This document shows, one piece after another, positions 2 through 56,379 of a stretch of 64,000 nt of DNA. A program made the translations under genes and the position numbers. The notes below the pieces were generated by a model. The model did not search any database. It was not told the DNA's origin and worked only from the letters and a program-made list of their open reading frames with translations. Each line of letters opens with the position of its first letter. Position 1 is the first letter of the stretch. The stretch comes from a bacterium (lineage in GTDB: Bacteria > Zhuqueibacterota > Zhuqueibacteria > Oceanimicrobiales > Oceanimicrobiaceae), in assembly GCA_037446635.1 (NCBI GenBank), contig JBBIIG010000014.1:16294-80293 (forward strand), given 5' to 3'.

Positions 2-178
2 CAGCGTACGGACAACCGCAGTGACTACGGAATGCAATGCCGGGTCTATTTTGTGGATGGCCATTTCACCGGCGTACCGAGTAAGCAAATGATTCAGGTA
101 GCCTTGCAGCACGCGCTGGCTGAGCAACAGGGAATCTCAGTCTTAATTACACGGAGCAATAATGGAGGATTGAATTGA
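2..178 (+). CDS. 3' end of an unidentified CDS (5' part lies outside the window)
   Basis: The frame is open from the window edge to TGA at 176-178 (...YFVDGHFTGVPSKQMIQVALQHALAEQQGISVLITRSNNGGLN). I recognise no family. Confidence 0.3.
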   Translation, partial: QRTDNRSDYGMQCRVYFVDGHFTGVPSKQMIQVALQHALAEQQGISVLITRSNNGGLN

Positions 179-232: not shown

Positions 233-259
233 CTTTGGAAATTTAGAGGAGAAAAGACG

Positions 260-1246
260 ATGACACTCAAAGTAATCTTCTTGACGGGTTTCATTATGGT
301 GTTGGCTTCCGCGCTCTACGCACAGTCAAAAGATTTGCCAGCGGAGTACAAACAGATTCTGCCGCGCGGACAAATTGCGGCCATCACGCAGCCGCAATTT
401 GTTCCAGCCGACAAAGCCGAAATCGCCGATGACTCGTGGGTGCTGGGCGTGGTCATCGACGGTCAGGCACGGGCGTACAGCTTGAATCTGTTGAACAGCC
501 ATGAAGTGGTGAACGACCAAATCGGAGAGCAGGCTTTTGCCGCGGTGTGGTGACCGCTGGCTAATACCGGCGTCGTGTACGACCGCAAATATCAAGATAA
601 AACCATCACGTTTGAAGCTTCGGGCGGGCTGCTAAACAGCGCGTTGGTCATGCAGGATCGCGAGACCGATAGTTACTGGCCGATTATGCAGGGCGAGGCC
701 ATCGCCGGCGAAATGAAGGGGACGAAGTTAAAAGAAATGCCGGTCGCTGAAAAAGTCCAGTGGAAGGATTGGGTCAAAAAGCACCCGAACACATTGGTGC
801 TCTCGGTGAACGGCCGCGAAGACGGCTTCAATCCCTACAAAACATATTTTGAATCGAAAGAAGGCTTTCGCGGGACGGCGGCAAAGGATCGGCGTTTGGC
901 AACTAAGGAGCCGATCTTCGCTTTTCATTATCAAGGAAAAAGTTACGCGGTACCTTATAAGAATTTTGAGGGCGGCAAAACCTTCGATTTGAATGGTGTG
1001 AAACTCTTTCTCTATCGTCCGCCAAAATCCGAAATTTTCTACTCCACCGCGGCCTTTGCGGCTGCGGGTGATGGGTTTAAGATCGAAAACGGAAAGTGGT
1101 ACCACGTGGATTCGGGCTGCCAGTTTAATCCGAATTCGGGTTCATTTGAAAAGGGACCGGGAGCGTGCCCGGAGAAATTTCATGGGTTTGATACCTTTTG
1201 GTACAATTGGAGTTTGTCCAATCCGGATACCCAACTTTTACGGTAA
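260..1246 (+). CDS. DUF3179 domain protein with a single in-frame TGA (551-553): candidate selenoprotein, or a nonsense-mutated gene
   Basis: ORFs 260-553 and 575-1246 share one frame and are separated only by the TGA. GAGGAG RBS before ATG 260, followed by a signal peptide. Read-through gives FAAVW-[TGA]-PLANTGVVYDR...DRETDSYWPIMQGEAIAG, matching the DUF3179 core (Y/W)CPLCNT...D.ET.S.W as I recall it. Confidence 0.7.
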
Positions 1247-1354
1247 TTGTAATGAAATGGATTTAACTTTCCGAGAGGAGGTGAAAGAGGAGAGCAAGTA
1301 ACCCCTTTAACTCGCTGTCAAAATTATTCATTCACAAAAAACGGGAGGGTTCCA

Positions 1355-1978
1355 ATGAAAGCATTCAGGACTTTGGTCGTATTCGCTCTGGCAACGGTTG
1401 TAGCTTTTGCTCTGGTCAATCTTTCAGCGCAGGAAACCAAGCATCAGCCCAAACCGCTCACCGAAGAGCAAAAAATGATGATGAAAAACATGGCCATGAA
1501 AAACATGGATAAGTTCATGGCCAGCAAAGACGCCATGATGCAGCTACCTCAGCATCTGAAAAAAACCCAGGACGAATCTATTAAGCTGGGGGAAGAATTA
1601 TTTAATTCGAAGACCGCGCTCAGCACCAATGGCCAGGCTTGCGCCAGTTGTCACCCCGGCGGCGGCACCACCGGCGGCGAAGCCGAGACGCCTATGGCCA
1701 GCGAGGTGACGGGCAAACCGTATAAACTGCCCATCCCGACTCTCATTGGCTCGGCGGCCACGTTTCCGAAATACAAAATTCCTAATGATGCGGTTATTAC
1801 CGTGGGCGATATGGCCAACAACTGCATCATGATGTTTATGGCTGCGCAGCCGCTTGACCCCAAAAGCAAAGAATTTAAGGCGTTGTCTGCTTACGTGACC
1901 TCCTTGAGCAACGAGGACAAAGTGTCGGTGGGAGAAGTGCCAGAGATGATGAAAAAAATGATGGGCGAAAAGAAGTAG
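1355..1978 (+). CDS. Monohaem c-type cytochrome, Met-rich (SoxA/TsdA-like domain)
   Basis: GGGAGG RBS, signal peptide and one CASCH haem motif. Met-rich tracts MMMKNMAMKNMDKFMASKDAMMQ and PEMMKKMMGEKK. The segment NNCIMMFMAAQPL...ALSAYVTSLS resembles SoxA/TsdA-type domains (recollection). Confidence 0.85.
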   Translation: MKAFRTLVVFALATVVAFALVNLSAQETKHQPKPLTEEQKMMMKNMAMKNMDKFMASKDAMMQLPQHLKKTQDESIKLGEELFNSKTALSTNGQACASCHPGGGTTGGEAETPMASEVTGKPYKLPIPTLIGSAATFPKYKIPNDAVITVGDMANNCIMMFMAAQPLDPKSKEFKALSAYVTSLSNEDKVSVGEVPEMMKKMMGEKK

Positions 1979-1996
1979 CTTTTCCATAACTGTGAT

Positions 1997-2029
1997 AACC
2001 CTGACGGGGTTCGCAACCCTGTCAGGGTT
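1997..2029. repeat. Family-E double palindrome, probable terminator of the monohaem cytochrome gene
   Basis: AACCCTGACGGGGTTCGCAACCCTGTCAGGGTT, 19 nt after the stop at 1978. Confidence 0.8.
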
Positions 2030-2058
2030 AAAACCATTGCACAAACTTTAAATTAGTC

Positions 2059-3072
2059 ATGAAGATTGTCAATATCTGTTTACTATTTGTGGTAGTAAGT
2101 TTGTCTATTGTAACCGCGCAAGATGGTGAAGATGCTGCGCGCTGGAAGAACACGCCGCAGGAGGCTTTCTTAAACAGCGAAATTGTTCAAACCTATCAAT
2201 GCACCAGTTGCCACACCATCGCCGAGCGCGGGGGTACCGTCGGGCCGATCCTGAATCAAGTGGGCAATCGCCGAACCGAAGAGTGGCTGCGCCGCTGGCT
2301 GGCCGACCCGCAGCAGGTTAAGCCCGGAACCAAGATGCCCAAGTTTGATTTCACGCCCGAGCAATTGGATGCGGTGGTCGGCTATTTGACCAACATGAAA
2401 AAAACGCTCCGCACCGATGCCATTCTCGCGCAAAACAAATCTTTAATCGAAACAGGCGAGATGCTGTTTGAGGATTACGATTGCCTGGCCTGCCATCGCG
2501 TGGGCTCCGACGGCAGATTTATCGGGCCGGACTTAACCTGGGTTGGGTTGCGAAAGACCGCGGCCTGGGAAAAAACCTGGCTGGCCGATCCCCCCGGATT
2601 TAAGCCCGATACCTTCATGCCTAATTTTCATATCCCGCAAAAGGGAATAGAAGCGCTGGCGGAGTATCTGCATAACCAGCAAGGACAGAAAAATGCCGAT
2701 TCGCAGGAGTGGGAATTTCGCACCAACTTCTTTCTGGGAAACAGCGATCGCGAACGCGGCGAATTGGTATTCAAGCGCTTTGCGTGTTGGGCGTGCCACG
2801 GTGAGAGCGGCAGCGGCGGCATCAAAAATCCCAACATGGCGCCCGACGAAATGATGCCGCCGCTGAAAGAAGCCGCGGTGAAATATACCGAAGCCGAGCT
2901 TTTGGCGCGGCTGAAAACGAAAACCGCGCCCCGGTCGCTGGATGGCAATAAACCAGCTCCGCCATTTTTCTGTCCGGACTATGGCAATTATATGGAAACT
3001 TCCGAATTCAGCGACCTTTACGCTTATTTGAAATCATTCGCGCCCAAGAAACTCAAGTGGCGGTTTAATTAA
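2059..3072 (+). CDS. Trihaem c-type cytochrome
   Basis: Signal peptide. Three CxxCH motifs (CTSCH, CLACH, CWACH), each inside a ~100 aa class-I cytochrome c-like unit. Confidence 0.9.
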   Translation: MKIVNICLLFVVVSLSIVTAQDGEDAARWKNTPQEAFLNSEIVQTYQCTSCHTIAERGGTVGPILNQVGNRRTEEWLRRWLADPQQVKPGTKMPKFDFTPEQLDAVVGYLTNMKKTLRTDAILAQNKSLIETGEMLFEDYDCLACHRVGSDGRFIGPDLTWVGLRKTAAWEKTWLADPPGFKPDTFMPNFHIPQKGIEALAEYLHNQQGQKNADSQEWEFRTNFFLGNSDRERGELVFKRFACWACHGESGSGGIKNPNMAPDEMMPPLKEAAVKYTEAELLARLKTKTAPRSLDGNKPAPPFFCPDYGNYMETSEFSDLYAYLKSFAPKKLKWRFN

Positions 3073-3128
3073 GTAAGCGGCATTATTCACAGACGGCAAA
3101 AGGTGAGGACGACATCTACATTGAAGTT

Positions 3129-3172
3129 TATTAATCCAAATGGGAGTAATGGATTATTGGATCGTTGGATCG
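3129..3172. repeat. Family-G units (tattaatccaaatgggagtaatggattattggatcgttggatcg)
   Basis: Same TGGAGTAATGGATTA vocabulary as the other family-G sites. Followed by two hairpins (GCCCGCC...GGCGGGC 3194-3221; CTCAAAGC-GGA-GCTTTGAG 3223-3241). Confidence 0.65.
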
Positions 3173-3280
3173 TAACGCAAACCTCAGGTTTGCCCGCCTG
3201 CCTAAGGCCTCTGGCGGGCAGCTCAAAGCGGAGCTTTGAGTTACATATATAAAATTATCCAAGCTAAAAGGAGCAGAATC

Positions 3281-4012
3281 GTGTCAGTCAGGAAAGTTTT
3301 TTCGATAGCTTTGCTAGCGGTAGTTGCGCTCATCTATTTGGCCAATCATCGTACCTCCGAGGCCAGTTTAAACGGCGGCGCCGTCACCGGCGTGGTGCGA
3401 TTTCCTGGGGAGTATCCGGATCGCGAAAAGATCATGATCACCAAAGACCAGCAGGTTTGCGGCGCGTTTCAGTACTCGGAGATTTTTGTGGTGGCGGAAG
3501 AAAACCACGGGTTGAAAAACGTCGTGATTACGCTGGTAAATGTCAAAGGTGGGCAAGCGCCGGCCGCGGTAACGGCCACCATCGATCAGAAAGGGTGCCG
3601 CTATATGCCCCACGTGCAGGCCGTGCCGGTCGGCAGCAATTTGGAAATTCTGAATAGCGATGGCATCTTGCATAACATTCATGCCTATTACAATGGACTG
3701 GATCCTAAAAATACCGTCTTTAATAAAGCCCAACCTAAGTTTCTCAAAAAAATCACTCATACGCTGGATAAGGCCGGGATGTACTACTTCAAGTGCGATG
3801 TGCACAGTCACATGAGCGCGTATGTGGCGGTGATGGATCACCCGTATTATGCGGTGAGCGATGACTACGGTAAATTTACGATCGATAACGTGCCTCCCGG
3901 TTCCTATAAAATTCAAGCCTGGCATGAGGCTCTCGGCGTTTTAGAGAAGAACGTTACCGTCGCGGCTGGCAAAACCACTGATGTAAATTTTGATATTTTG
4001 CCAAATGAGTAA
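3281..4012 (+). CDS. Cupredoxin (type-1 copper) protein with a C-terminal carboxypeptidase-regulatory-like domain
   Basis: The ORF spans 3236-4012. I prefer GTG 3281 as the start (AAAGGAG RBS upstream, then a TM/signal segment). Cu-ligand pattern LHNIHA ... C-DV-H-SH-M has amicyanin-type spacing. The tail GKFTIDNVPPGSYKIQAWHE is CarboxypepD_reg-like. Confidence 0.8.
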   Translation: MSVRKVFSIALLAVVALIYLANHRTSEASLNGGAVTGVVRFPGEYPDREKIMITKDQQVCGAFQYSEIFVVAEENHGLKNVVITLVNVKGGQAPAAVTATIDQKGCRYMPHVQAVPVGSNLEILNSDGILHNIHAYYNGLDPKNTVFNKAQPKFLKKITHTLDKAGMYYFKCDVHSHMSAYVAVMDHPYYAVSDDYGKFTIDNVPPGSYKIQAWHEALGVLEKNVTVAAGKTTDVNFDILPNE

Positions 4013-4033
4013 TTTATCGAGAGAATGTGAATC

Positions 4034-4521
4034 ATGAAAAAGCTGTTCTTCTATTTTTTAGCCATTTCTAGTTTATTGTTAGTCTCGTGCAATAGTGACC
4101 AACCGTTGGGCAGCAATGACGGGGCAAATCCGAGTAAGTCGGGTTTCGGGGTCTCCGGACTTTTGTTTGAGAACAACCTGGTGATGTGGGATCGCGAGAA
4201 CCAAGGCAGCCGCAGCGAATTATTTCCACAAATGTATTTCACCCGCGCCGACGCCGCCGACTTTCCCACCTGGGACACATTTCCTTCCAACCAGATGGTT
4301 TCCGGCGGTCCGCCACGTGATGGCATACCTGCGCTGACCAATCCCAGAATCGTATCCTCAACTTCATAAGTAACGCGAATCCATTTCAGATGACTGATAA
4401 CGAGACCAACAGCGTTTGGAACATCAAAGGCGAGGCGATTTCCGGTGCACTCTCCGGCGTGAAGCTGACACAGATTCCCGCATACAATGTCAAATCTCAA
4501 TATCGTCGTTCCGATTGCTGA
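4034..4521 (+). pseudogene. Second DUF3179 gene, internally deleted and truncated
   Basis: The N-terminal lipoprotein part ends ...GGPPRDGIPALTNP then hits a stop at 4369. A different frame (4387-4521) carries QMTDNETNSVWNIKGEAISGALSGVKLTQIPAYN, the D.ET.S.W...G..G..L block of DUF3179. The central ~130 aa, including the CPLC region, is missing. The 3' end overlaps the convergent gene 4497-4907. Confidence 0.7.
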
Positions 4522-4942: not shown

Positions 4943-5275
4943 TTATAAAAGCGTTTTCAGCCTCTCTGTCAACTCACTTTTTGAAATCACCCCGTTTAGT
5001 CGGTCGATCACTCTACCATTTTTGAAAAAGAGCATGGTTGGGATACATTCAATCCCAAATGTCGTGGCGATCGCAGGGTACTCGTCCGCGTTTATTTTCG
5101 CAAAATTAGCTTTACCAGAGAATTCCAGCGCCAAATCTTCGACGATGGCTGTCATGATTTCAGAAGCCCCACTCCAACTGGTCGAGAATAGCACCAGAAC
5201 CGGGAGTACGTTTTCGAGGACCCGGTGATTGAAATTCTTGCTCGTTAATATGATCGTTCTATTGGTTCTCGGCAT
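4943..5275 (-). CDS. Thioredoxin-fold protein with a degenerate active site (WSGAS instead of WCGPC)
   Basis: Trx-like layout: [16 protein letters not shown]...[30 protein letters not shown]. Start placed at the internal Met (MPRTNRT) to avoid overlapping the upstream gene. Confidence 0.7.
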
Positions 5276-5295
5276 CGATGTTTTTATGTCATTCG

Positions 5296-5898
5296 TTACA
5301 ACCGAATTCTTGCTGGGCAACACGATCTTAAAATATCCGGGTTTAATTTAGCGATTTCTTCGGCAATTTCTTCACTGGTGAATCGGGGTGTGATATGCTG
5401 CGGGCAGTTCCAATCAAAAGCCTGGATTTTGAAAATGATCAGACGCTCAATGTTGGCTTTGTAATCGGGCATCTTCAGTTCTTTTAACAATTCAGCATTC
5501 TGCTCGGCGTCGATCATTTCTGATTCAGCCCATATTTTCAGACGTTGTTGAGAAGGATAGTCCATTAAGAATAGTGACGCTTTACGGCTCGAATTGATGT
5601 TGCCAACACTGATGTATTGCATGTTGCCGCGAAAATCGGCATAGCCGAGCGTGGTGCTATCGATTACTTTCAGAAATCCTTTCGGACCACCGCGGAATTG
5701 CACATACGGCCAGCCGTTTTCGCCAACGGTAGCCATGTAAAAGCTGTCCCTTGATTCAATAAAAGAAATTTCTCTGTTTGTTAGAACATATTGGTTGCCG
5801 GACGCTTCCACACGGGCGTAGGATTGGCGAGAGCCGTACCGTTGCTGAGCCCTTCTAACGCTATCGGTGAAAGCAAACTTGGTGAAATTCTGGTTCAT
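5296..5898 (-). CDS. Pyridoxamine 5'-phosphate oxidase-like FMN-binding protein
   Basis: SFYMATVGENGWPYVQFRGGPKGFLKV...FRGNMQYISVGN is typical of the PNPOx-like split-barrel family. Confidence 0.85.
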   Translation of the reverse strand: MNQNFTKFAFTDSVRRAQQRYGSRQSYARVEASGNQYVLTNREISFIESRDSFYMATVGENGWPYVQFRGGPKGFLKVIDSTTLGYADFRGNMQYISVGNINSSRKASLFLMDYPSQQRLKIWAESEMIDAEQNAELLKELKMPDYKANIERLIIFKIQAFDWNCPQHITPRFTSEEIAEEIAKLNPDILRSCCPARIRL

Positions 5899-37248: not shown

Positions 37249-37281
37249 GAACCCTGTCAGGGTTTCAAACCCTGACAGGTT
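37249..37281. repeat. Family-E double palindrome (AACCCTGTCAGGGTT / AACCCTGACAGG)
   Basis: GAACCCTGTCAGGGTTTCAAACCCTGACAGGTT. Other copies at 1997-2029 and 56364-56379. Confidence 0.85.
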
Positions 37282-37298
37282 ATGACAGCGGAGGTTAA

Positions 37299-45304: not shown

Positions 45305-46891
45305 ATGAAACAGTATCGCAGAAGCTTTCTCGTCATTTCCTCGGTTACTTTGCTGTTTTTAATTTTGGCGTGGCGCTTTGACGCCCAAACCAAAACCGGA
45401 AACATCTACGAACAGAGCCAGCGCTTCATCGAAGTGATGCGGGCGGTGAAAGAATTTTATGTGGAAGATTTGGACACCGGCGAAATGGTGGAGGGCGCCA
45501 TCAACGGCATGTTGGAACGGTTGGACCCGCATTCGGTTTTTATCCCCAAAGAAAAGGTGCAGGAAATCAACGAACAATTTGAGGGAGAATTCGAGGGCAT
45601 TGGCGTGGAGTTCGTCATTAACAATAAATTGCCGACGATCGTTTCCCCCATCGCTGGTTCGCCTTCGGAAAAGGTGGGGCTGCGCGCTGGCGATCGCATT
45701 GTCCGCATCGAAGGCGTTTCGACCTATGGATTCACCGAGGATCAAGTACGGGAAAAACTGTTGGGCCGCAAAGGCGCCAAAGTGACCATTGAAATTTTGC
45801 GCCCCGGTTTGGAGGAGCCGTTCACGGTGACCATCACTCGCGACAAAATTCCGGTGTACAGCGTGCTGGCGGCTTTCATGCTCGACGCGCGCACCGGCCT
45901 GATCAAAATCGGGCGCTTTGCGCGCACCACCAATGAGGAGTTTCAGAAGGCGCTGCTCGACTTAAGGGGCAGGGGCATGAGGCGGCTCATTATCGATTTG
46001 CGCGGCAATGCCGGCGGCTATCTCGAACAAGCGGTGGAGATGGTCGATCACTTTTTGGGCGGCGAAAAGCGCATTGTTTACACTCGCGGCCGCACTCCCA
46101 ACTCCAGCGAAGATTACTTTGCCACCGCCGCCGGCGATTACGAGCAATTGCCGCTGGTGGTGTTGATCGATCACGGTTCGGCCAGCGCCGCAGAAATTGT
46201 GGCCGGCGCGATTCAAGATTGGGATCGGGGATTGGTCGTGGGGCAAACCAGTTTTGGAAAAGGGTTGGTGCAGCAACAAATTCCTTTAAAAGACGGCTCG
46301 GCCTTGCGGGTAACCATCGCCCGCTACTACACGCCCAGCGGCCGGATGATCCAGCGCCCCTACGAGTATGGCCTCGAAAGCTATTTTGCCGAGGGTTTGG
46401 ATGATCGCGATCCCAACGCGGAGGCGGACAGCGCCTCCGGTCGTCCGGTCTTTTTAACCAGCGGCGGACGGAAGGTTTATGGCGGCGGCGGGATCTCGCC
46501 GGATGTGATCGTCAAACCCGAAGTGATTTCGCTCACCTCGGTTAGATTACTACAACAGCAGATTTTCTTTGAATACGGCACCACCTACGCCGCGCAGCAT
46601 CGTAGTTTGGCCAGCAATTTTCTGGGGTTTCGCGATCGTTTTCAGGTTGATGAGCAGATGGTGAACGACTTTATCGGCTTGGCGCGCCGCCGTGGCGTCG
46701 AGGTGAACGATCAACATGTTGCGCAGGACAGCGGCTTCATCAAACGGAGGATCAAAAGCGAGCTCGCCCGCAATTTGTGGGGTACACGGGAGTTTTATCA
46801 AATCGAAGCGCTGGGGGACCAGCAGGTGGTGGAGGCCAGAAAACTCTTCGAGCGCGCCGCGAAGATCGCCGGGCTGAAACTCGAAGGCTAA
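45305..46891 (+). CDS. S41 family C-terminal processing peptidase (PDZ-containing)
   Basis: PDZ domain (GIGVEFVINNKLPTIVSPIAGSPSEKVGLRAGDRIVRIEG). Catalytic region LIIDLRGNAGGYL...VLIDHGSASAAEIVAGAIQD...GQTSFGKG. Confidence 0.9.
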   Translation: MKQYRRSFLVISSVTLLFLILAWRFDAQTKTGNIYEQSQRFIEVMRAVKEFYVEDLDTGEMVEGAINGMLERLDPHSVFIPKEKVQEINEQFEGEFEGIGVEFVINNKLPTIVSPIAGSPSEKVGLRAGDRIVRIEGVSTYGFTEDQVREKLLGRKGAKVTIEILRPGLEEPFTVTITRDKIPVYSVLAAFMLDARTGLIKIGRFARTTNEEFQKALLDLRGRGMRRLIIDLRGNAGGYLEQAVEMVDHFLGGEKRIVYTRGRTPNSSEDYFATAAGDYEQLPLVVLIDHGSASAAEIVAGAIQDWDRGLVVGQTSFGKGLVQQQIPLKDGSALRVTIARYYTPSGRMIQRPYEYGLESYFAEGLDDRDPNAEADSASGRPVFLTSGGRKVYGGGGISPDVIVKPEVISLTSVRLLQQQIFFEYGTTYAAQHRSLASNFLGFRDRFQVDEQMVNDFIGLARRRGVEVNDQHVAQDSGFIKRRIKSELARNLWGTREFYQIEALGDQQVVEARKLFERAAKIAGLKLEG

Positions 46892-46922
46892 AAAATCGGC
46901 GCCGGGCGCAACAAAAAAAGAG

Positions 46923-46951
46923 TTGACTTTTTAACAAAAATTATTTATACT
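46923..46951 (+). promoter_or_regulatory. Sigma-70-type promoter for the exbB operon
   Basis: TTGACT-17 nt-TATACT, about 70 nt upstream of ATG 47022. Confidence 0.55.
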
Positions 46952-47021
46952 TTTGCAAATTTTTGAAATTAAAGGGTGTTATGCGAGTAATTTAATCACT
47001 TATTTGGGAGGAGAAACCGTA

Positions 47022-47657
47022 ATGAATTTGCTGAAAATGTTCCACGACGGCGGCGGTTTTATGTGGCCGATTTTAGCCTGTCTGATCCTCGGAATCGCAA
47101 TTAGCTTGGAACGATTTTGGACCCTATCAAGAGCTTCAGTTAATACTCGAAAGTTTCTCGCCACCATTAAAAAAGCGCTGCAAGAGGGTGGGGTGAAGGC
47201 GGCGACGGAGGTGTGCACCAACACTCGCGGGCCCGTGGCCTCGATTTTTCACGCCGGGCTGCTGCGCGTTGATCGTGGAATCGAACACGTTGAGAAAGCG
47301 ATCATGAACGCTGGCAGCATTGAAATGGCCTTCCTCGAAAAGGGCCTGGTATGGTTGGCTACCATCGTCAGCGTAGCGCCCATGTTGGGCTTCCTCGGCA
47401 CCGTGTGGGGCATGATCTTAGCGTTCGATCAGATCGCCCTTGCTAACGACATTTCTCCCGCCATCGTGGCCGGTGGTATTTCGGTAGCGCTTTTGACCAC
47501 CCTGTTTGGTCTGGTGGTCGCCATCATCATTCAAACTGCCAACAACTATTTCATCTCTCGTGTTGACAAGCTCATCGTCGATATGGAAGAGAGCTCGGTT
47601 GACTTTGTTGACACGCTCATCGAAATGGAAAAAGAAGGCCGGCTCAAAAAGGCGTAA
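47022..47657 (+). CDS. exbB: MotA/TolQ/ExbB proton-channel protein
   Basis: GGAGGA RBS. MWPILACLILGIAISLERF and ...APMLGFLGTVWGMILAF.... Confidence 0.9.
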   Translation: MNLLKMFHDGGGFMWPILACLILGIAISLERFWTLSRASVNTRKFLATIKKALQEGGVKAATEVCTNTRGPVASIFHAGLLRVDRGIEHVEKAIMNAGSIEMAFLEKGLVWLATIVSVAPMLGFLGTVWGMILAFDQIALANDISPAIVAGGISVALLTTLFGLVVAIIIQTANNYFISRVDKLIVDMEESSVDFVDTLIEMEKEGRLKKA

Positions 47658-47696
47658 TCGAGTTTTGAGGCAGTATTTTTTAAGGAGCATTCAAAT

Positions 47697-48098
47697 ATGC
47701 TGGTAGAAAAAAAGAAAAGTCGCATGACAGAAATTCCGTCGGCGTCGTTGGCTGATATCGCATTTCTACTCCTGATCTTTTTCCTGGTTACCACCACTAT
47801 CGACGTGGATAAAGGCATCGGTTTGACGCTGCCTGCCAAGGGCGAGGAGACCCAGGTTCGCACCAAAAATATCACCAATCTATTGATCAATGCCCAGGGC
47901 CAAGTTTTGCTGGATAACGAATTGATCGAGATTGGCGATATTAGCCGAATCGTTCAGGAAAAGATCCGCGAGAACGAAAATTTGATCGTCTCCGTCAAAA
48001 CCGATCGCGAAACCAAATACGAAGTCTTCGTTCAGGCTTTGGACCAATTGAAAATAGCCAACGCATCGCGTATTTCAATTGCCGAACCCGAGAAGTAA
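47697..48098 (+). CDS. exbD: ExbD/TolR biopolymer transport protein
   Basis: SLADIAFLLLIFFLVTTT followed by the periplasmic domain. Confidence 0.9.
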   Translation: MLVEKKKSRMTEIPSASLADIAFLLLIFFLVTTTIDVDKGIGLTLPAKGEETQVRTKNITNLLINAQGQVLLDNELIEIGDISRIVQEKIRENENLIVSVKTDRETKYEVFVQALDQLKIANASRISIAEPEK

Positions 48099-48114
48099 AA
48101 AGGAGGGTGCAAAT

Positions 48115-48528
48115 TTGAAATTCTCGAAAAAGCAAAATGTGCAAGCAGGCATCCCGTTGGCGTCGTTGCCGGACCTGGTCTTTTTGCTATTGATATTTTT
48201 TATGGTGTCATCGGTTTTCAAGGAATTTTCCGGCATCCCGGTGCGGCTGCCGAACGCCTCGAAGATTGAAAAATTGTCCGGCAAACGTGACGTCGCCTAC
48301 CTTTGGCTCAGCAGAGACGGCCAAATCTCCATCGACGATAAATTCGTCAACCTGTCGGATGTTTCGAAAATCATGTACCAGAAACGTATCGACCCCATGC
48401 ACCCATTGAAAGTGGTGTCGTTGAAAATCGATAAGGAAACGGAAATGGGGAGAGTTACCGACATCCACGAGCAGCTCCGTGAAGCCGACGCGCTAAATAT
48501 CAATTACTCCGCAAAACCTTCATCATGA
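48115..48528 (+). CDS. exbD: ExbD/TolR biopolymer transport protein (second copy)
   Basis: AGGAGG RBS with TTG 48115. SLPDLVFLLLIFFMVSSVF. Confidence 0.85.
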   Translation: MKFSKKQNVQAGIPLASLPDLVFLLLIFFMVSSVFKEFSGIPVRLPNASKIEKLSGKRDVAYLWLSRDGQISIDDKFVNLSDVSKIMYQKRIDPMHPLKVVSLKIDKETEMGRVTDIHEQLREADALNINYSAKPSS

Positions 48529-48538
48529 GAGGTGATGT

Positions 48539-49177
48539 ATGAAAAAGAATCCAGAGGCGAACTTGAAGCTCAAATACCGTAAAGTATTTGAAGTGAGCTT
48601 GATCATCACGCTGGTGGTGCTGATCGTTTTCTTTCAAATGCTGCGCGCCATCAGCTTGGAGGCCACCGAAGCCAAAACTCCGGAAATTAAGATCGAGGTA
48701 GCAGACATTCCGCCCACCGAGCAGATAAAACGTCCGCCTCCGCCTCCCAAGCCTTCGGTGCCGATTCCCACTGAAAATGAGGACATTCCGGAGGATTTGA
48801 CGATTGAAAGCACCAACCTCGATTTAACCGAAATACCGCCTCCGCCTCCGCCTCCCGAGGACGACGGCGAAGTCAATATTTTTGTGCCGTATGATGAACC
48901 CCCAAGCCCAATCGGAGGCTTTGCCGCTATTCAGCGCGCCTTGAAATATCCGGAAATTGCGCGCAAAGCCGGCATCGAAGGCAAGGTTATCGTGCAGGTG
49001 CTGGTCTCCGAAAAAGGGGAAGTGGTGGATACCAAAGTGATTAAATCCCTGGGACACGGCGGCATGGATGAAGCGGCAGTGAATGCTATTCGCAGCGTTA
49101 AATGGAAACCCGCTTTGCAAAGAGATAAACCCGTCAAAGTTTGGGTGGCTATTCCGGTTATTTTCAAGCTCAAATAA
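48539..49177 (+). CDS. tonB: TonB-family energy transducer
   Basis: N-terminal TM anchor, Pro-rich spacers (RPPPPPKPSVP, PPPPPPPED), and a C-terminal TonB domain (IARKAGIEGKVIVQVLVSEKGEVVDTKVIKSLG...AVNAIRSVKWKPA). Confidence 0.85.
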   Translation: MKKNPEANLKLKYRKVFEVSLIITLVVLIVFFQMLRAISLEATEAKTPEIKIEVADIPPTEQIKRPPPPPKPSVPIPTENEDIPEDLTIESTNLDLTEIPPPPPPPEDDGEVNIFVPYDEPPSPIGGFAAIQRALKYPEIARKAGIEGKVIVQVLVSEKGEVVDTKVIKSLGHGGMDEAAVNAIRSVKWKPALQRDKPVKVWVAIPVIFKLK

Positions 49178-49210
49178 TTGGGGCTAAAAATTGCCTTCAG
49201 ATTTTTTGTA

Positions 49211-49247
49211 AAAGCGGCGACCGAGAACCGGCGCCGCTTTTTTTGTT
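49211..49247 (+). terminator. Rho-independent terminator after tonB
   Basis: AAAGCGGCG-12 nt loop-CGCCGCTTT followed by TTTTT. Confidence 0.8.
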
Positions 49248-49264
49248 GTGAATGAGTTAATGCT

Positions 49265-49783
49265 ATGAGTCCACAGCTCCGCAATTTCCCTTTCGTGGTT
49301 TTGATTTTGCACTTTGCGGCGTGCTTCAATCCTTTCGCTCCGAGCCTGGATAAAGCTCCCGATTTCTCTAACATCATTACCGAGCAGCGAAGTCCGGAAG
49401 AGGTGCTGCAGAATTTTAAATATGCCTATACTTTCAAAGACTCTCTCCTCTACCACGACGTTTTGGAAGAGTCGTTTGTATTTGAATATTTCGATCCCAA
49501 TCTCGCGCCTTCGGGCGGGTTTCGCACCTGGGGCCGCGATGTTGACTTAAAAACGACTGGCCAGCTTTTTCGCAATTTTGACGTGATTGACCTCGAATGG
49601 CTGGCCACCCTGTTTTCAGAATCGGACGGAGAATTTGAGCGGCGGTTCATGCGATTCAACCTGAATCTGGTCGGGCCTAATTTTAATTTTATTGTGAGCG
49701 GGACCGCCATTTTCACCTTCCGGCGCTCCGACCTCGATAACAAGTGGCGGATCGTCCGCTGGAAGGATGAATCGGATCTCTAA
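49265..49783 (+). CDS. Hypothetical lipoprotein
   Basis: Lipobox-like HFAAC. 172 aa with no recognised motif. It sits at the tail of the Ton cluster. Confidence 0.55.
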   Translation: MSPQLRNFPFVVLILHFAACFNPFAPSLDKAPDFSNIITEQRSPEEVLQNFKYAYTFKDSLLYHDVLEESFVFEYFDPNLAPSGGFRTWGRDVDLKTTGQLFRNFDVIDLEWLATLFSESDGEFERRFMRFNLNLVGPNFNFIVSGTAIFTFRRSDLDNKWRIVRWKDESDL

Positions 49784-49961
49784 CAGCTAACAGGCTGTTT
49801 GAAACTCACCTGGAGTTTTTTAGCAACCTAATGTAACCCAAGTAAATTTTCCGGAATATTTTTTTTGAAGCCCATGTTCACTCTTTTGAATCACGTCAGA
49901 AGTATCGCCCAGTTCTTATTCCTGTGTAATTTAATTAAGAGCATTTTGGAGGATTTCGTTG

Positions 49962-50615
49962 ATGGAACAAGAGTGTCGCCGCTTTTCAAATCTAATCACC
50001 GCGCTGGTGGATGACGAATTGCAAAGCGCAGAAAAGAGTGAAGTTGAAAATCACTTCAAAATCTGCCCCCCCTGCCACCAGCGCTATCAGAATGAAAAGC
50101 GGGTTAAAAGGGTGGTTGCCGATCGTTTGCCTGTTATCAGCGCGCCGGCGTATCTGGTGCAGCGAATCCGCCATCATCTGCAATCGGGCAGAGCGTGGCC
50201 GGGTTTCTGGGAGTTGCTGCGCGATTTGTTTGTTTACCATCCTCTTTCTGCATCCTTTGCGGCTGCGGCGTTGATTTTAATCGTGGCGCTGCCGACATAT
50301 TTTCTCTCCATCCACCGTGATCAGACCGCGAATTTCGCGGGTGAGTTGAATGGCAAAGTTGTTGAGCTCCAGGGGCAAATCATCTGTTTGGATTGTGCAT
50401 ACACCTATCACGATGAACAGAATCAAACGCCGCACACTGAGATTCATCGCATCGGGATCCGCTGCGCCGCCGATCAAATCTGGACGTTTCTTGATACCCG
50501 TCCGCACCAGGAACTGCTGCACGATCCGAAGTATTTGCAGCGGAATGTTCTCGTCAAGGGCGTCGTTTATCAAGATGCGCGCTATGTTTTCATTAAAGAC
50601 TACCAACTATTGTAA
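49962..50615 (+). CDS. zf-HC2 anti-sigma-factor-like membrane protein, with no sigma factor gene adjacent
   Basis: GGAGGA RBS. CRRFSNLITALVDDELQSAEKSEVENHFKICPPCHQRY (H-x3-C-x2-C). One TM helix. The external domain contains CLDC...H...C. Confidence 0.65.
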   Translation: MEQECRRFSNLITALVDDELQSAEKSEVENHFKICPPCHQRYQNEKRVKRVVADRLPVISAPAYLVQRIRHHLQSGRAWPGFWELLRDLFVYHPLSASFAAAALILIVALPTYFLSIHRDQTANFAGELNGKVVELQGQIICLDCAYTYHDEQNQTPHTEIHRIGIRCAADQIWTFLDTRPHQELLHDPKYLQRNVLVKGVVYQDARYVFIKDYQLL

Positions 50616-50657
50616 TACCTTCCCACGGTTTTTCATCGAGCCCAAACCTGAACCAGC

Positions 50658-51560
50658 ATGTTCAAACGAATCAGCGTGGTGGTTAATCCCGTTGCTGGCG
50701 GAAAGAAAGACAAATCGCAGCTCATCGCCAGGCTCACGAAGTTGCTTTCCGCCCCCGGGCGCAGCCTCTCCATTCAGTACACCGAAAAATCCGGCGACGC
50801 CAACCGCTTGGCTCGCGAAGCCGTGCAGCAAAATTCACAGCTCGTGGTGGTGATCGGCGGCGACGGCACCGTAAACGAAGTCGGCTCGGCCCTGGTTGAT
50901 ACCGACGTGCCCATGGCCATTATCCCGCGCGGCTCGGGAAACGGCTTTGCCCGGACGCTGCGGCTGCCGCCGCAATTAGAAGACGCCGCGGCTTTAATCA
51001 ATGATGGAGCGATTTCGCTAATCGACGTTGGGCAGGCGAACGAGCGCTACTTTTTTATGCTAATGGGAGTTGGCTTTGATGCCCGGATCGGCGAGCGATT
51101 TAACGCGCACTCCTCACGGGGGCCGCTGCCGTACTTCTATCTCAGCGCCAAAGAATTTTTTAACTACCGGCCCGCGCCGCTTCAAATCAACTTCAACGGA
51201 AAAGCTTTAGCGCTGGCGCCGTTTATGATTATCATCGCCAACGCCCAGCAGTTTGGCAACAACGCGCGCATAGCGCCGCACGCGATTTTGAACGACGGCC
51301 TGCTCGATATTTGCATCGTGCGCCGCCTCTCTTTTTTCGATCTACTCTTCGCACTGCCCAAACTTTTCAGCGGCCGCATTCACAATTATTCCGGTGTCGA
51401 GTTTTATCAAGCCCAACAGGTTCAGTTACAGCGCGAGCGCGCGGATTTTATCAACCTCGATGGCGAAGCCGTTTGGGAGGAAGCGGTGGTCAACGTTAGG
51501 GTGCTGCCGCGGCGCCTGAAAGTCATCACCCCAAAATTTTGCCCGGCGTTGGCGCCATGA
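50658..51560 (+). CDS. Diacylglycerol/lipid kinase family protein (YegS/BmrU type)
   Basis: VVVNPVAGGKK...VVVIGGDGTVNEV...IIPRGSGNGFAR... Confidence 0.85.
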   Translation: MFKRISVVVNPVAGGKKDKSQLIARLTKLLSAPGRSLSIQYTEKSGDANRLAREAVQQNSQLVVVIGGDGTVNEVGSALVDTDVPMAIIPRGSGNGFARTLRLPPQLEDAAALINDGAISLIDVGQANERYFFMLMGVGFDARIGERFNAHSSRGPLPYFYLSAKEFFNYRPAPLQINFNGKALALAPFMIIIANAQQFGNNARIAPHAILNDGLLDICIVRRLSFFDLLFALPKLFSGRIHNYSGVEFYQAQQVQLQRERADFINLDGEAVWEEAVVNVRVLPRRLKVITPKFCPALAP

Positions 51561-52213
51561 ATTCTCTGGTCATTTTTGTCAAACATCCCGCACCCTACAA
51601 GGTGAAAACCCGGCTCGGAGCGCAAATTGGTTATGCCTTAGCCGCCGACTTGTATAAAATTTTTATTGAACAAACCATCACGATGGCGGCGCGCAGCTCC
51701 GCCGACCGCGTGTTGATTGCGTATGAGTCGGCCGAGCGCGCTGACGACGTTAATTTGGCATTGCCCGCGGCGATGGCGGCGTTTCCGCAAACTGGCAGGG
51801 ATTTAGGCCAGCGGATGTTCAACGCTTTTCAACACACGTTTGCAGAAGGAGCCCATTCCACCGTGATCATCGGCAGCGACAGCCCCACGCTGCCGCGGCA
51901 TTTTCTAAAGCGAGCGTTCGATTATTTGGAACATAAAGATTTAGTGCTTGGCCCGGCGCAAGATGGCGGCTATTATTTGATCGGTTTAAAAACTCCCGTG
52001 CAAAAACTTTTTGAAAACATCGAATGGAGCTCGCCAGTTGTTTTGGAAAAAACGCTGGCGCGCGCCGAACAATTGCAGCTCTCTTTTGATTTGCTGCCCG
52101 TCTGGTACGACGTCGATGAAATCGAATCGCTGAAGCGCGCCGCCCACGATGACGCCAGCGGCCAGATTAAAAACTTCCTGCTGCGAAACTGTCCCACCAT
52201 CCAGCTTGATTGA
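51557..52213 (+). CDS. DUF2064 (TIGR04282-type) putative glycosyltransferase
   Basis: ATGA overlap with the kinase gene. LVIFVKHPAPYKVKTRL...DLGQRMFNAF...IIGSDSPTLP...VLGPAQDGGYYLIGL. Confidence 0.8.
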   Translation: MNSLVIFVKHPAPYKVKTRLGAQIGYALAADLYKIFIEQTITMAARSSADRVLIAYESAERADDVNLALPAAMAAFPQTGRDLGQRMFNAFQHTFAEGAHSTVIIGSDSPTLPRHFLKRAFDYLEHKDLVLGPAQDGGYYLIGLKTPVQKLFENIEWSSPVVLEKTLARAEQLQLSFDLLPVWYDVDEIESLKRAAHDDASGQIKNFLLRNCPTIQLD

Positions 52214-52214
52214 A

Positions 52215-56363: not shown

Positions 56364-56379
56364 AAACCCTGTCAGGGTT
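56364..56379. repeat. Family-E palindrome (AAACCCTGTCAGGGTT) in the 44-nt gap between the two HhH genes
   Basis: Same core as 1997-2029 and 37249-37281. Confidence 0.75.

What the first reader, a model, noticed from the sequence alone, without database searches (positions are those of the whole stretch)
260..4521. DUF3179 / Met-rich monohaem cytochrome / trihaem cytochrome / amicyanin-type cupredoxin cluster: an uncharacterised periplasmic redox module
Five co-directional genes, all with export signals, sit in 4.3 kb. They are DUF3179 (function unknown); a monohaem cytochrome c whose mature ends are Met-rich (MMMKNMAMKNMDKFMASKDAMMQ; PEMMKKMMGEKK), reminiscent of Cu(I)-binding Met motifs, and whose fold looks SoxA/TsdA-like; a trihaem cytochrome c; a type-1 copper protein (C-x2-H-x2-M spacing) fused to a carboxypeptidase-regulatory-like sandwich; and a second, decayed DUF3179. 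No terminal oxidase or reductase is present. The set therefore looks like a soluble electron-transfer chain serving an unidentified substrate (metal, sulfur species or copper handling), and DUF3179 is the only candidate catalytic or binding partner. I do not know of a described pathway with this composition.
Basis: inference. Interest (0 to 1): 0.65.

Follow-up and report, generated by a model that had tools for sequence, protein, structure and literature searches.

The report
SoxA-like cytochrome–cupredoxin module beside a selenoprotein
The region holds a three-gene periplasmic redox cassette (a cysteine-ligated SoxA-type cytochrome, a three-haem cytochrome and a blue copper protein) that recurs in the same order in about ten bacterial phyla and has not been characterised, while the two flanking DUF3179 genes (one an overlooked selenoprotein, one a pseudogene) are only lineage-specific neighbours.

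Summary
The five co-directional genes are real, but they are not one conserved unit.

**Conserved core.** The core is g2-g3-g4 (1355-4012).
- g2 is a monohaem SoxA/TsdA-fold cytochrome with an invariant distal Cys.
- g3 is a trihaem cytochrome with SoxX-like domains.
- g4 is a type-1 copper cupredoxin.

This trio occurs in the same order in 37 of 48 genome loci from about 10 phyla, and its flanks are otherwise unrelated.

**g2 is the likely catalytic subunit, not DUF3179.** It departs from SoxA/TsdA: the Arg that is invariant four residues before the Cys is Met in 57 of 58 family members. No soxYZ-type gene is nearby.

**The DUF3179 genes.**
- That codon aligns with the family's Cys. It is TGA in 79 of 84 relatives and is followed by a covarying SECIS-like hairpin.
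- DUF3179 is already listed as a selenoprotein family.
- None of 80 independently found g1-type loci carries the trio.
- A different, Cys-type DUF3179 follows g4 only in KSB1/Calditrichaceae relatives. Here it is a scrambled remnant (g5).

**Verdict.** This is an uncharacterised variant of the SoxA-family systems. The substrate is unknown; a sulfur compound is the most likely, and copper is a rival. Interest is moderate.

The parts
2..178 (+). 3' end of a DUF2703-family gene, cut by the window edge
   Evidence: Window 11-125 is 85% identical to the end of the DUF2703 gene that precedes DUF3179 in L051 and L052.
260..1246 (+). g1: exported DUF3179 selenoprotein (328 codons including the Sec codon)
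   Evidence: PF11376 scores 187 bits straight through the TGA. The closest homologues are all split at the same codon.
551..553 (+). In-frame TGA read as selenocysteine (motif W-U-P-L-A-N)
   Evidence: It aligns with the Cys of WCPLAN in full-length homologues. The codon is TGA in 79 of 84 related loci and TGC/TGT in the other 5.
567..585 (+). SECIS-like hairpin: 7-bp stem with a CGUGU loop, starting 14 nt after the TGA
   Evidence: 90% of cells are paired across 73 sequences, with compensatory GC<->UA changes at two pairs; 0 of 500 shuffles reach the observed value. The window copy forms 5 of 7 pairs. The Val-Val-Tyr codons are nearly invariant at synonymous sites.
1355..1978 (+). g2: monohaem SoxA/TsdA-fold cytochrome c with Met-rich N- and C-terminal arms; candidate catalytic subunit
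   Evidence: PF21342 scores 51 bits and TIGR04484 52 bits, below its cut-off of 110. The profile hits SoxA and TsdA structures. The family is conserved across phyla.
1640..1654 (+). g2 haem-binding motif C96-A-S-C-H100
   Evidence: Invariant in A1 and in the 56 locus sequences that cover the motif.
1811..1825 (+). g2 motif M153-A-N-N-C157: predicted distal Cys haem ligand, with Met where SoxA/TsdA have the invariant Arg
   Evidence: Cys157 aligns with SoxA Cys114 and Cys222 (1h31) and with TsdA Cys96. Met sits at Cys-4 in 57 of 58 sequences. [quoted passage not shown]
1996..2030 (+). 16-bp hairpin between g2 and g3, built from a repeated palindrome
   Evidence: Energy -28 kcal/mol, z = -4.9, no U tail. 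The same palindrome recurs at 37250 and 56365. Relatives carry a hairpin, in many followed by a T run, at this position.
2059..3072 (+). g3: trihaem class-I cytochrome c (CxxCH at 2200-2214, 2482-2496 and 2785-2799) with SoxX-like domains
   Evidence: TIGR04485 (SoxX) scores 83 bits against a cut-off of 61, in two stretches. PF00034 and FixO-type motifs are also present. It always follows g2.
3196..3242 (+). Two adjacent hairpins in the g3-g4 spacer
   Evidence: z = -2.3 for the whole spacer. Their function was not tested.
3281..4012 (+). g4: type-1 copper cupredoxin with a C-terminal CarboxypepD_reg-type beta-sandwich
   Evidence: The ligands H131(N132), C172, H175 and M178 are invariant in 45 homologues. 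The AF2 model has pLDDT 93. Foldseek matches amicyanin, pseudoazurin and plastocyanin at E about 1e-6.
4034..4488 (+). g5: scrambled pseudogene of the Cys-type DUF3179 lipoprotein that follows g4 in KSB1 relatives
   Evidence: A lipobox signal is followed by out-of-order fragments equivalent to residues ~123-157, ~45-64 and, in another reading frame, 310-345 of the intact protein. The Cys motif is lost.
49959..50660 (+). 'Empty site': the anti-sigma homologue abuts the diacylglycerol kinase (DAGK) gene, the place where relatives carry g2-g3-g4-(OMP)-DUF3179
   Evidence: The backbone S41-ExbB-ExbD-ExbD-TonB-lipoprotein-anti-sigma-DAGK-DUF2064-GT2 lies at 45305-53590. It is syntenic with L003, L004, L006, L009-L012 and L015, but carries neither the trio nor the ECF sigma gene.

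Best explanation
The region contains two separable things.

**(A) A self-contained periplasmic redox cassette, g2-g3-g4.**
- g2 is a SoxA-family cytochrome whose single haem is predicted to be His100/Cys157-ligated.
- By analogy with SoxA and TsdA, this Cys-ligated haem is the reactive site. A reduced substrate, most likely a sulfur nucleophile, would be oxidatively conjugated at or next to the Cys.
- The electrons would pass to a SoxX-like domain of the trihaem g3, through its other haems, and on to the type-1 copper of g4. g4 would then feed the respiratory chain.
- The thiosulfate-binding Arg of SoxA/TsdA is replaced by an invariant Met, and the protein carries conserved Met-rich arms. The substrate or partner is therefore probably not thiosulfate bound in the canonical way.
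- A hairpin or terminator after g2 probably sets a higher g2:g3-g4 expression ratio.

**(B) DUF3179 genes that are lineage-specific neighbours.**
- g1 is an exported selenoprotein. A single Sec replaces the family Cys, and a SECIS-like hairpin follows it.
- g1 belongs to an upstream thiol-redox neighbourhood (DUF2703, redoxins).
- g5 is a dead copy of a Cys-type DUF3179 lipoprotein.

**Shown:** the gene content, conservation of the trio, conservation of the ligand residues, the Sec codon and its hairpin, and the lack of DUF3179 co-occurrence.

**Inferred:** the haem ligation, the direction of electron flow, and the substrate class.
For: - The trio occurs in the same order and orientation in 37 of 48 genome loci. 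These come from KSB1, Calditrichota, Acidobacteriota, Zixibacteria, Gemmatimonadota, Marinimicrobia, Krumholzibacteriia, Fidelibacterota, Ignavibacteriales and Polyangiaceae. The flanks are unrelated outside the KSB1 clade.
- g2 matches PF21342 and structures of SoxA and TsdA. Its invariant Cys157 aligns with their haem-ligand Cys.
- In TsdA the Cys ligand forms the catalytic S-thiosulfonate intermediate (PMC4423706).
- g3 passes the NCBIfam SoxX cut-off.
- The copper ligands of g4 are invariant and its fold is a cupredoxin.
- A hairpin follows g2 in most loci.
- g1 carries TGA in 79 of 84 relatives, with a covarying hairpin. selD and selB lie next to a homologue in L001.
- DUF3179 is listed as a selenoprotein family (PMC9312934 and PMC13188914).
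- None of 80 independently found g1-type loci carries the trio.
Against: - No biochemical data exist for any member of the g2 family.
- The Arg that is invariant and catalytically most important in SoxA/TsdA is Met in 57 of 58 g2 sequences. g2 scores best against the non-catalytic haem-1 domain of SoxA.
- g2 fails the SoxA equivalog cut-off, 52 against 110.
- No soxYZ or soxB gene, nor any other sulfur gene, is conserved nearby.
- Proteobacterial members lack g4 and have a shorter g3.
- g4-like cupredoxins also occur alone in unrelated contexts.
- Some physical linkage of DUF3179 with the trio does exist in the KSB1 lineage.
Confidence: 0.55

Rival explanations
1. DUF3179, through its single Sec or Cys, is the substrate-carrying or substrate-binding partner of the cytochromes, in the way SoxY partners SoxXA. 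The Sec-type g1 has functionally replaced the decayed Cys-type g5.
For: - A Cys-type DUF3179 lies 0.2-2.2 kb downstream of g4 in 7 KSB1/Calditrichaceae loci.
- In this genome, g2-g3-g4-g5 sits away from the ancestral backbone with its order preserved.
- A Sec-type DUF3179 directly precedes g2 in the window, L051 and L052.
- In L089, a Cys-type relative of g1 is followed by a partial g2-like cytochrome.
- g5 decayed only where g1 is present.
Against: - Thirty of 37 trio loci in other phyla have no DUF3179 within 10 kb.
- None of 80 g1-type loci carries the trio.
- The only recurrent neighbour of DUF3179 is an outer-membrane barrel of the Phenol_MetA_deg type. The same barrel separates DUF3179 from g4 in several KSB1 loci.
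- g1 is 77% identical to L051 at the nucleotide level, against 91% for g2-g3. This suggests a separate history.
- The replacement argument rests on a single event.
Confidence: 0.2
2. A copper-handling module. The conserved Met-rich arms and the Met-lined pocket of g2 bind Cu(I). The cassette either oxidises periplasmic Cu(I) or delivers copper to its own cupredoxin.
For: - The Met motifs are conserved in sequence: KMMMKNMAMKNMDK, MPEMMKKMM, and M153/M160 around the Cys.
- Met content is 8-13% in most single-copy g2 genes (KSB1 and Acidobacteriota loci).
- Met-rich domains recruit Cu(I) in CueO-type systems (PMC11494321).
- A cupredoxin is an obligatory partner in most phyla.
Against: - No cop, cus or cue genes are conserved nearby.
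- The second g2 paralogue in many phyla is not Met-rich (4-7%) and has Arg or Lys at Cys+2.
- Cys-ligated haems are normally several hundred mV too negative to accept electrons from Cu(I); this rests on established knowledge and PMC9562282.
- Structural work gave no support for a copper site in SoxA-family enzymes, according to PMC4423706.
Confidence: 0.15
3. A pure electron shuttle. The three proteins only carry electrons between respiratory complexes (for example ACIII or bc to cbb3, caa3, NirK or NosZ) and have no substrate of their own.
For: - No partner enzyme is conserved nearby.
- The g3 domains resemble CcoO, caa3 subunit II and QcrC cytochromes.
- The g4 family has about 2000 members, and some of them stand alone.
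Against: - The invariant distal Cys and the SoxA fold of g2 are typical of catalytic or very low-potential haems, which are poor links in a high-potential chain.
- The tight three-gene synteny, and tandem g2 duplication in 11 loci, are unusual for generic carriers.
Confidence: 0.1

Closest known systems
SoxXA cytochrome complex of the Sox thiosulfate-oxidising system (types II/III, with a monohaem SoxA)
   Same: - g2 is a monohaem SoxA-fold subunit, and its distal Cys aligns with the SoxA haem ligands.
- The partner cytochrome has SoxX-like domains, is encoded immediately downstream, and passes the TIGR04485 cut-off.
- Both systems are periplasmic.
   Different: - g2 fails the SoxA equivalog cut-off (52 against 110).
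- The invariant Arg at Cys-4 is Met.
- g2 has Met-rich arms.
- The partner has three haems and 337 aa.
- A dedicated cupredoxin is present.
- No soxYZ, soxB or soxCD gene lies within 10 kb in 48 loci.
TsdA thiosulfate dehydrogenase/tetrathionate reductase (with TsdB)
   Same: - The N-terminal catalytic domain has the same fold.
- The CxxCHPG motif and the ligand Cys align (TsdA His53/Cys96).
- JGI pipelines already label g2 homologues 'thiosulfate dehydrogenase'.
   Different: - TsdA is a dihaem protein with a fused electron-transfer domain, whereas g2 has one haem.
- Arg119 and Arg109 of TsdA correspond to Met153 and Pro143 in g2.
- The electron acceptor is a trihaem cytochrome plus a cupredoxin, rather than TsdB or HiPIP.
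Amicyanin/pseudoazurin-type cupredoxins
   Same: - The ligand set His...Cys-x2-His-x2-Met is the same, with the conserved Asn after the first His.
- The fold is a cupredoxin.
   Different: - g4 carries extra N-terminal strands and a C-terminal CarboxypepD_reg-like beta-sandwich.
- It scores just under the PF00127 gathering threshold (20.8 against 21.2).
- It is linked to cytochromes rather than to methylamine dehydrogenase or nitrite reductase.
DUF3179 selenoprotein family (PF11376; listed with a UxxC/T motif)
   Same: - g1 is a full-length PF11376 member with Sec at the family's conserved Cys position.
- NCBI already names relatives 'DUF3179 domain-containing (seleno)protein'.
   Different: - The motif here is U-P-L-A, with no second Cys or Thr at +3.
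- This subfamily is overwhelmingly Sec (79 of 84 loci).
- The function remains unknown, and no solved structure exists.

Membership tests
SoxA (NCBIfam TIGR04484, equivalog) | Whole-protein score at or above the curated cut-off of 110 bits | tested here: not met
   g2 scores 52.4 bits.
SoxA/TsdA cytochrome c domain superfamily (PF21342) | Domain score above the gathering threshold of 27 bits | tested here: met
   g2 scores 51.3 bits. The A1 profile hits SoxA 1h31, 2c1d and 3oa8, and TsdA 4wq7.
SoxA family of Cys-ligated cytochromes | A CxxCH haem with a distal Cys ligand at the homologous position | tested here: met
   Cys157 is invariant in A1. It aligns with SoxA Cys114 and Cys222 and with TsdA Cys96. 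The actual ligation cannot be tested with these tools.
SoxA family of Cys-ligated cytochromes | An invariant active-site Arg four residues before the ligand Cys (TsdA Arg119) | tested here: not met
   Met occupies that position in 57 of 58 g2-family sequences and Ile in one. The feature is defined in PMC4423706.
TsdA | A second, fused haem domain (dihaem protein) | tested here: not met
   g2 has a single CxxCH in 207 aa.
Sox system | Genomic association with the carrier SoxYZ (C-terminal GGCGG motif) and with SoxB | tested here: not met
   No ORF ends in GGCGG in 48 loci or in the window. No further conserved gene cluster accompanies the trio. SoxB was not searched for by profile.
SoxX (NCBIfam TIGR04485, equivalog) | Score at or above the cut-off of 61 bits | tested here: met
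   g3 scores 83.2 bits in two stretches, the best covering residues 47-112. The architecture, with three haems and 337 aa, differs from known SoxX.
Type-1 copper cupredoxin | The His, Cys, His, Met ligand set in a cupredoxin fold | tested here: met
   H131, C172, H175 and M178 are invariant in 45 homologues. Foldseek matches amicyanin and pseudoazurin at E 1e-6 to 1e-5. PF00127 is borderline at 20.8 against 21.2 bits. Copper content cannot be tested.
DUF3179 (PF11376) | A full-length match above the gathering threshold | tested here: met
   187.5 bits, covering profile positions 2-292 of 292.
Bacterial selenoprotein | An in-frame TGA aligned with Cys in homologues and conserved among orthologues | tested here: met
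   The codon is TGA in 79 of 84 loci and Cys in 5. Full-length Cys homologues are aligned.
Bacterial selenoprotein | A SECIS hairpin shortly downstream of the UGA | tested here: met
   A 7-bp stem occupies positions 17-35 counted from the first base of the UGA. 90% of cells are paired, with compensatory changes at pairs 18-34 and 21-31. The window copy is weaker, with 5 of 7 pairs.
Bacterial selenoprotein | Sec machinery (selA, selB, selD, tRNA-Sec) present in the genome | not testable with these tools
   None was found in the 64-kb window. selD and selB lie next to the homologue in L001.

The most novel reading that the evidence does not exclude
g2-g3-g4 defines a new enzyme system of the SoxA family, spread over at least 10 mostly uncultured phyla. 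Its Cys-ligated haem sits in a Met-lined pocket in place of the usual Arg-lined one. It acts on a substrate other than free thiosulfate, for example sulfide, polysulfide, an organic thiol or a Cu(I)-thiolate. It feeds electrons through a dedicated trihaem cytochrome and a cupredoxin into respiration. In the KSB1 lineage it has recruited a DUF3179 Sec/Cys protein as a carrier.
Probability: 0.25. Interest if true: 0.7.

Novelty: new variant of a known kind. Interest (0 to 1): 0.48.

Why it matters
- If g2 is catalytic, this cassette would be an unrecognised route for oxidising sulfur, or another soft nucleophile, in sediment phyla that are abundant but uncultured: KSB1, Calditrichota, Zixibacteria, Marinimicrobia, Gemmatimonadota and Acidobacteriota.
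- Annotation pipelines currently label g2 homologues 'thiosulfate dehydrogenase', although the key catalytic Arg is missing. Metagenomic sulfur budgets that rely on that label may be wrong.
- The module offers a compact, expressible test case of how the pocket around a Cys-ligated haem tunes chemistry: Arg in SoxA/TsdA, Met here.
- The DUF3179 result corrects the annotation of g1, which is a selenoprotein and not two fragments. It also shows that this subfamily is almost always Sec-dependent.

Tried and rejected
- **Exact-sequence look-up of the window's own g1 and g2 products.** Neither is on record, so the contig could not be extended upstream. The close relatives L051 and L052 served instead.
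- **Conserved neighbours of the trio outside KSB1.** Only unrelated housekeeping genes turned up. The ECF sigma/anti-sigma pair upstream of g2 is limited to the KSB1 clade and is absent at the trio's site here.
- **Conserved neighbours of Sec-type DUF3179.** There is nothing consistent apart from an outer-membrane barrel in 8 loci, an FtsX-type permease in 8 and YceI in 6.
- **The extra Cys pair of g1 as a resolving pair for Sec.** C287 and C303 are present in only 31 of 79 Sec loci, always together, so they more likely form a structural disulfide.
- **Rfam and tRNA scans of the window.** Neither found anything.
- **Mobile-element repeats flanking 1250-4520.** None were found.
- **Literature searches.** Searches for SoxA plus cupredoxin, for TsdA in these phyla, and for Met-rich cytochromes found no description of this module.
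- **An alternative hairpin at 553-580.** It starts right at the TGA in the window's minimum-energy fold, but it is not conserved across relatives.

Full report
**1. What is in the sequence**

ORF listing and translation show five co-directional genes between 260 and about 4500.

- **g1 (260-1246).** This is a DUF3179 protein (PF11376, 187 bits, profile positions 2-292 of 292). Its reading frame contains a TGA at 551-553...AFAAVW-TGA-PLANTGVVYDR. Mechanical ORF calling, and the public gene call (P0001, 223 aa), therefore split or truncate it.
- **g2 (1355-1978).** It has one CxxCH motif (C96-H100). It matches the SoxA/TsdA cytochrome c domain (PF21342, 51 bits). It matches NCBIfam SoxA only weakly (52 bits against a cut-off of 110).
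- **g3 (2059-3072).** It has three CxxCH motifs (residues 48, 142 and 243). Its N-terminal domains pass the NCBIfam SoxX cut-off (83 against 61 bits).
- **g4 (3281-4012).** It combines a borderline plastocyanin-family match (20.8 against 21.2 bits) with a CarboxypepD_reg domain.
- **g5 (4034-4369).** It keeps a lipoprotein signal and a short DUF3179 match.

**2. g1 is a selenoprotein gene**

- Full-length homologues (about 50% identity) have Cys at the TGA position (VVWCPLAN).
- The closest homologues (56-77% identity) are all called as C-terminal fragments of about 223 aa. Where DNA was fetched, they appear as a 97-aa plus 224-aa split gene (L001, L002, L051, L052).
- A metagenome scan with alignment A2 returned 80 loci. 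Together with the four loci above, 79 of 84 have TGA at that codon, 4 have TGC and 1 has TGT.
- The 65 nt starting at the TGA align without gaps in 73 distinct sequences. The Val-Val-Tyr codons GTC GTG TAC are almost invariant at synonymous sites.
- A 7-bp hairpin spans columns 17-23 and 29-35, with a CGUGU loop.
  - It is paired in 90% of cells.
  - GC<->UA compensatory changes occur at two pairs.
  - No shuffle (0 of 500) and no slid register reaches the observed value.
  - The window's own copy (567-585) forms 5 of 7 pairs.
- In L001, selD and selB lie next to the gene. The window itself has no sel genes, no tRNA and no Rfam hit.
- DUF3179 is already listed as a selenoprotein family with a UxxC/T motif (PMC9312934 and PMC13188914). 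NCBI names relatives 'DUF3179 domain-containing (seleno)protein'.
- This part is therefore a corrected annotation and not a discovery. The motif here is U-P-L-A.

**3. g2-g3-g4 is a conserved cassette**

A profile of g2 homologues (A1) retrieved 48 genome loci.

- tblastn with the window proteins shows g2, g3 and g4 in the same order and strand in 37 of these loci. Two further loci are cut by contig ends.
- The loci come from candidate division KSB1, Calditrichota, Acidobacteriota, Zixibacteria, Gemmatimonadota, Marinimicrobia, Krumholzibacteriia, Fidelibacterota, Ignavibacteriales and Polyangiaceae.
- Eleven loci carry two tandem g2 paralogues.
- Four proteobacterial loci have g2 plus a shorter g3-like cytochrome (matching only two of g3's three domains) and no g4.
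- All-against-all clustering of ORFs from the loci finds no further gene family shared beyond the KSB1 clade.
- Flanking genes in distant phyla are housekeeping or otherwise unrelated.
- The g2 family is compact. In 1.84 billion cluster representatives, 25 score at E <= 1e-30 and 102 at E <= 1e-10.
- The g4 family is much larger (about 2000 hits) and also occurs alone elsewhere.

**4. What the three proteins look like**

*g2*
- Cys157 is invariant. In profile alignments it coincides with SoxA Cys114 and Cys222 (1h31) and with TsdA Cys96. These are the distal haem ligands, and in TsdA the Cys is the site of the S-thiosulfonate intermediate (PMC4423706).
- The Arg four residues before that Cys is reported to be invariant in SoxA and TsdA, and to be the residue whose loss most affects catalysis. 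In the g2 family it is Met in 57 of 58 sequences.
- TsdA Arg109 corresponds to the invariant Pro143 of g2.
- g2 scores best against the non-catalytic haem-1 domain of SoxA, which also has Met at that position.
- The residue at Cys+2 is Arg or Lys in the phyla with tandem paralogues, but Met or Gln in the KSB1/Acidobacteria clade.
- The N-terminal (KMMMKNMAMKNMDK) and C-terminal (MPEMMKKMM) Met motifs are conserved as sequence, not merely as composition.

*g4*
- H131-N132 and C172-x2-H175-x2-M178 are invariant in 45 homologues.
- The AF2 model (pLDDT 93) matches amicyanin, pseudoazurin, plastocyanin and the cupredoxin domain of a NirK.

**5. Transcription signals**

- The hairpin at 1996-2030 is strong (-28 kcal/mol, z = -4.9) but lacks a U tail.
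- It is built from a palindrome that recurs at 37250 and 56365.
- In most other loci the g2-g3 spacer carries its own GC-rich hairpin, in many followed by a T run.
- A terminator or attenuator after g2 is therefore a conserved property of the cassette. This fits a higher dosage of g2, and does not fit unrelated regulation.
- The simple terminator scan found nothing above chance in the first 5 kb.

**6. DUF3179 and the cassette**

*Against an obligatory link*
- Thirty of 37 trio loci have no DUF3179 within 10 kb.
- None of the 80 metagenome loci found through g1 carries the trio. Across all 84 loci analysed, 46 have at least 3 kb of flank.
- Sec-type DUF3179 has no consistent neighbour.
- The most frequent neighbour is an outer-membrane barrel of the Phenol_MetA_deg type. 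A similar barrel separates DUF3179 from g4 in several KSB1 loci.

*For a lineage-specific link*
- A Cys-type DUF3179 lipoprotein (YCPLTG motif, 29-36% identical to g1) lies downstream of g4 in seven KSB1/Calditrichaceae loci.
- g5 is its scrambled remnant.
- In the window and its two closest relatives, the order is DUF2703 - DUF3179(Sec) - g2 - g3.
- L089 has a Cys-type relative of g1 followed by a partial g2-like cytochrome.
- The backbone that surrounds the cassette in KSB1 relatives is S41 peptidase - ExbB - ExbD - ExbD - TonB - lipoprotein - ECF sigma - anti-sigma - [g2 g3 g4 (OMP) DUF3179] - diacylglycerol kinase (DAGK) - DUF2064 - GT2. The same backbone is present in this window at 45305-53590.
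- There, the anti-sigma homologue directly abuts DAGK, and neither the cassette nor the ECF sigma gene is present.
- The cassette, together with g5, therefore sits at a secondary location in this genome. g5 decayed next to a Sec-type paralogue.
- This pattern is compatible with functional redundancy, but it rests on a single event.
- g1 is also only 77% identical to L051 at the nucleotide level, against 91% for g2-g3.

**7. Interpretation**

The best-supported reading is a self-contained SoxA-family redox cassette. The Cys-ligated haem of g2 is the reactive centre. g3 supplies the SoxX-like acceptor plus two relay haems. g4 is the exit carrier.

The missing Arg residues, the Met-lined pocket and the absence of soxYZ make canonical thiosulfate chemistry doubtful. 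I favour a sulfur substrate, with moderate confidence. Copper handling and a pure shuttle role remain as rivals.

DUF3179 is not the conserved partner. A lineage-specific role cannot be excluded.

Within the searchable literature I found no description of this cassette.

**8. Verdict**

- Novelty: a new variant of the SoxA-family systems, plus a new member of a known selenoprotein family.
- Interest: about 0.5.

Noticed in passing
window 45305-53590: The gene backbone that flanks the cytochrome cassette in KSB1 relatives is present here without the cassette and without the ECF sigma gene. That backbone is S41 peptidase, ExbB, two ExbD genes, TonB, a lipoprotein, an anti-sigma gene, diacylglycerol kinase (DAGK), DUF2064 and GT2. 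The anti-sigma homologue (49959-50615) is only 31-40% identical, whereas its neighbours are 54-87% identical. The cassette therefore occupies a secondary site in this genome.
   Followed up: partly
window 1996-2030, 37250-37282, 56365-56379: The palindromic unit AACCCTG(A/T)CAGGGTT recurs in three intergenic places (7 matches against 0.14 expected by chance). It forms the hairpin between g2 and g3. It looks like a REP-like or terminator element.
   Followed up: partly
L003-L047, g2-g3 spacers: Most loci across phyla carry a strong GC-rich hairpin right after g2, in many followed by a T run. The stem sequences are unrelated between clades. A terminator or attenuator at this position therefore seems to be conserved as a function.
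   Followed up: partly
window 4943-5323 (-): A thioredoxin-fold ORF (PF00085, 68 bits) has WSGAS where the redox motif WCGPC would be. It is therefore probably not redox-active.
   Followed up: no
L051 1-8800; window 2-178: Upstream of the Sec-type DUF3179, close relatives carry a thiol-redox neighbourhood. It comprises DUF2703, two AhpC/redoxin genes, YceI, FGE-sulfatase and a 680-aa FAD/4Fe-4S protein. A 47-aa ORF precedes DUF2703 and might hide another split gene.
   Followed up: no
L001 9193-12207: selD and selB lie immediately next to a Sec-type DUF3179 gene that is 60% identical to g1.
   Followed up: no
L089 28-2274; L006 13450-14361: An outer-membrane barrel of the Phenol_MetA_deg type is the most recurrent neighbour of DUF3179, in 8 g1-type loci. 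A similar, Pfam-negative barrel-like protein is found in 6 KSB1/Calditrichaceae loci; in L006 it lies next to the Cys-type DUF3179. L089 also has a partial g2-like cytochrome (from the haem motif to FPRY only) after its DUF3179.
   Followed up: partly
[not shown]
   Followed up: partly
window 239-1252 versus 1250-3268, compared with L051/L052: Nucleotide identity to the closest relatives is 77% across g1 and 91% across g2-g3. The Cys pair C287/C303 of g1 is absent in those relatives. The region may be a mosaic or have recombined at the g1/g2 junction.
   Followed up: no
L028-L036, L039, L041: These loci carry two tandem g2 paralogues. The first is Met-rich (10-12% Met) and the second Met-poor (4-9%). 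Both have Arg or Lys at Cys+2, which recalls the two domains of dihaem SoxA.
   Followed up: partly
L046 2062-3270; L018 12352-13989; L023 3208-4713: In a Burkholderiales locus, g2 and a shorter g3-like cytochrome are followed by a molybdopterin-binding (MoCoBD) protein. In two loci grouping with the Acidobacteriota (L023 is labelled Acidobacteria; L018 is an unclassified MAG), an extra multihaem cytochrome follows g4.
   Followed up: no
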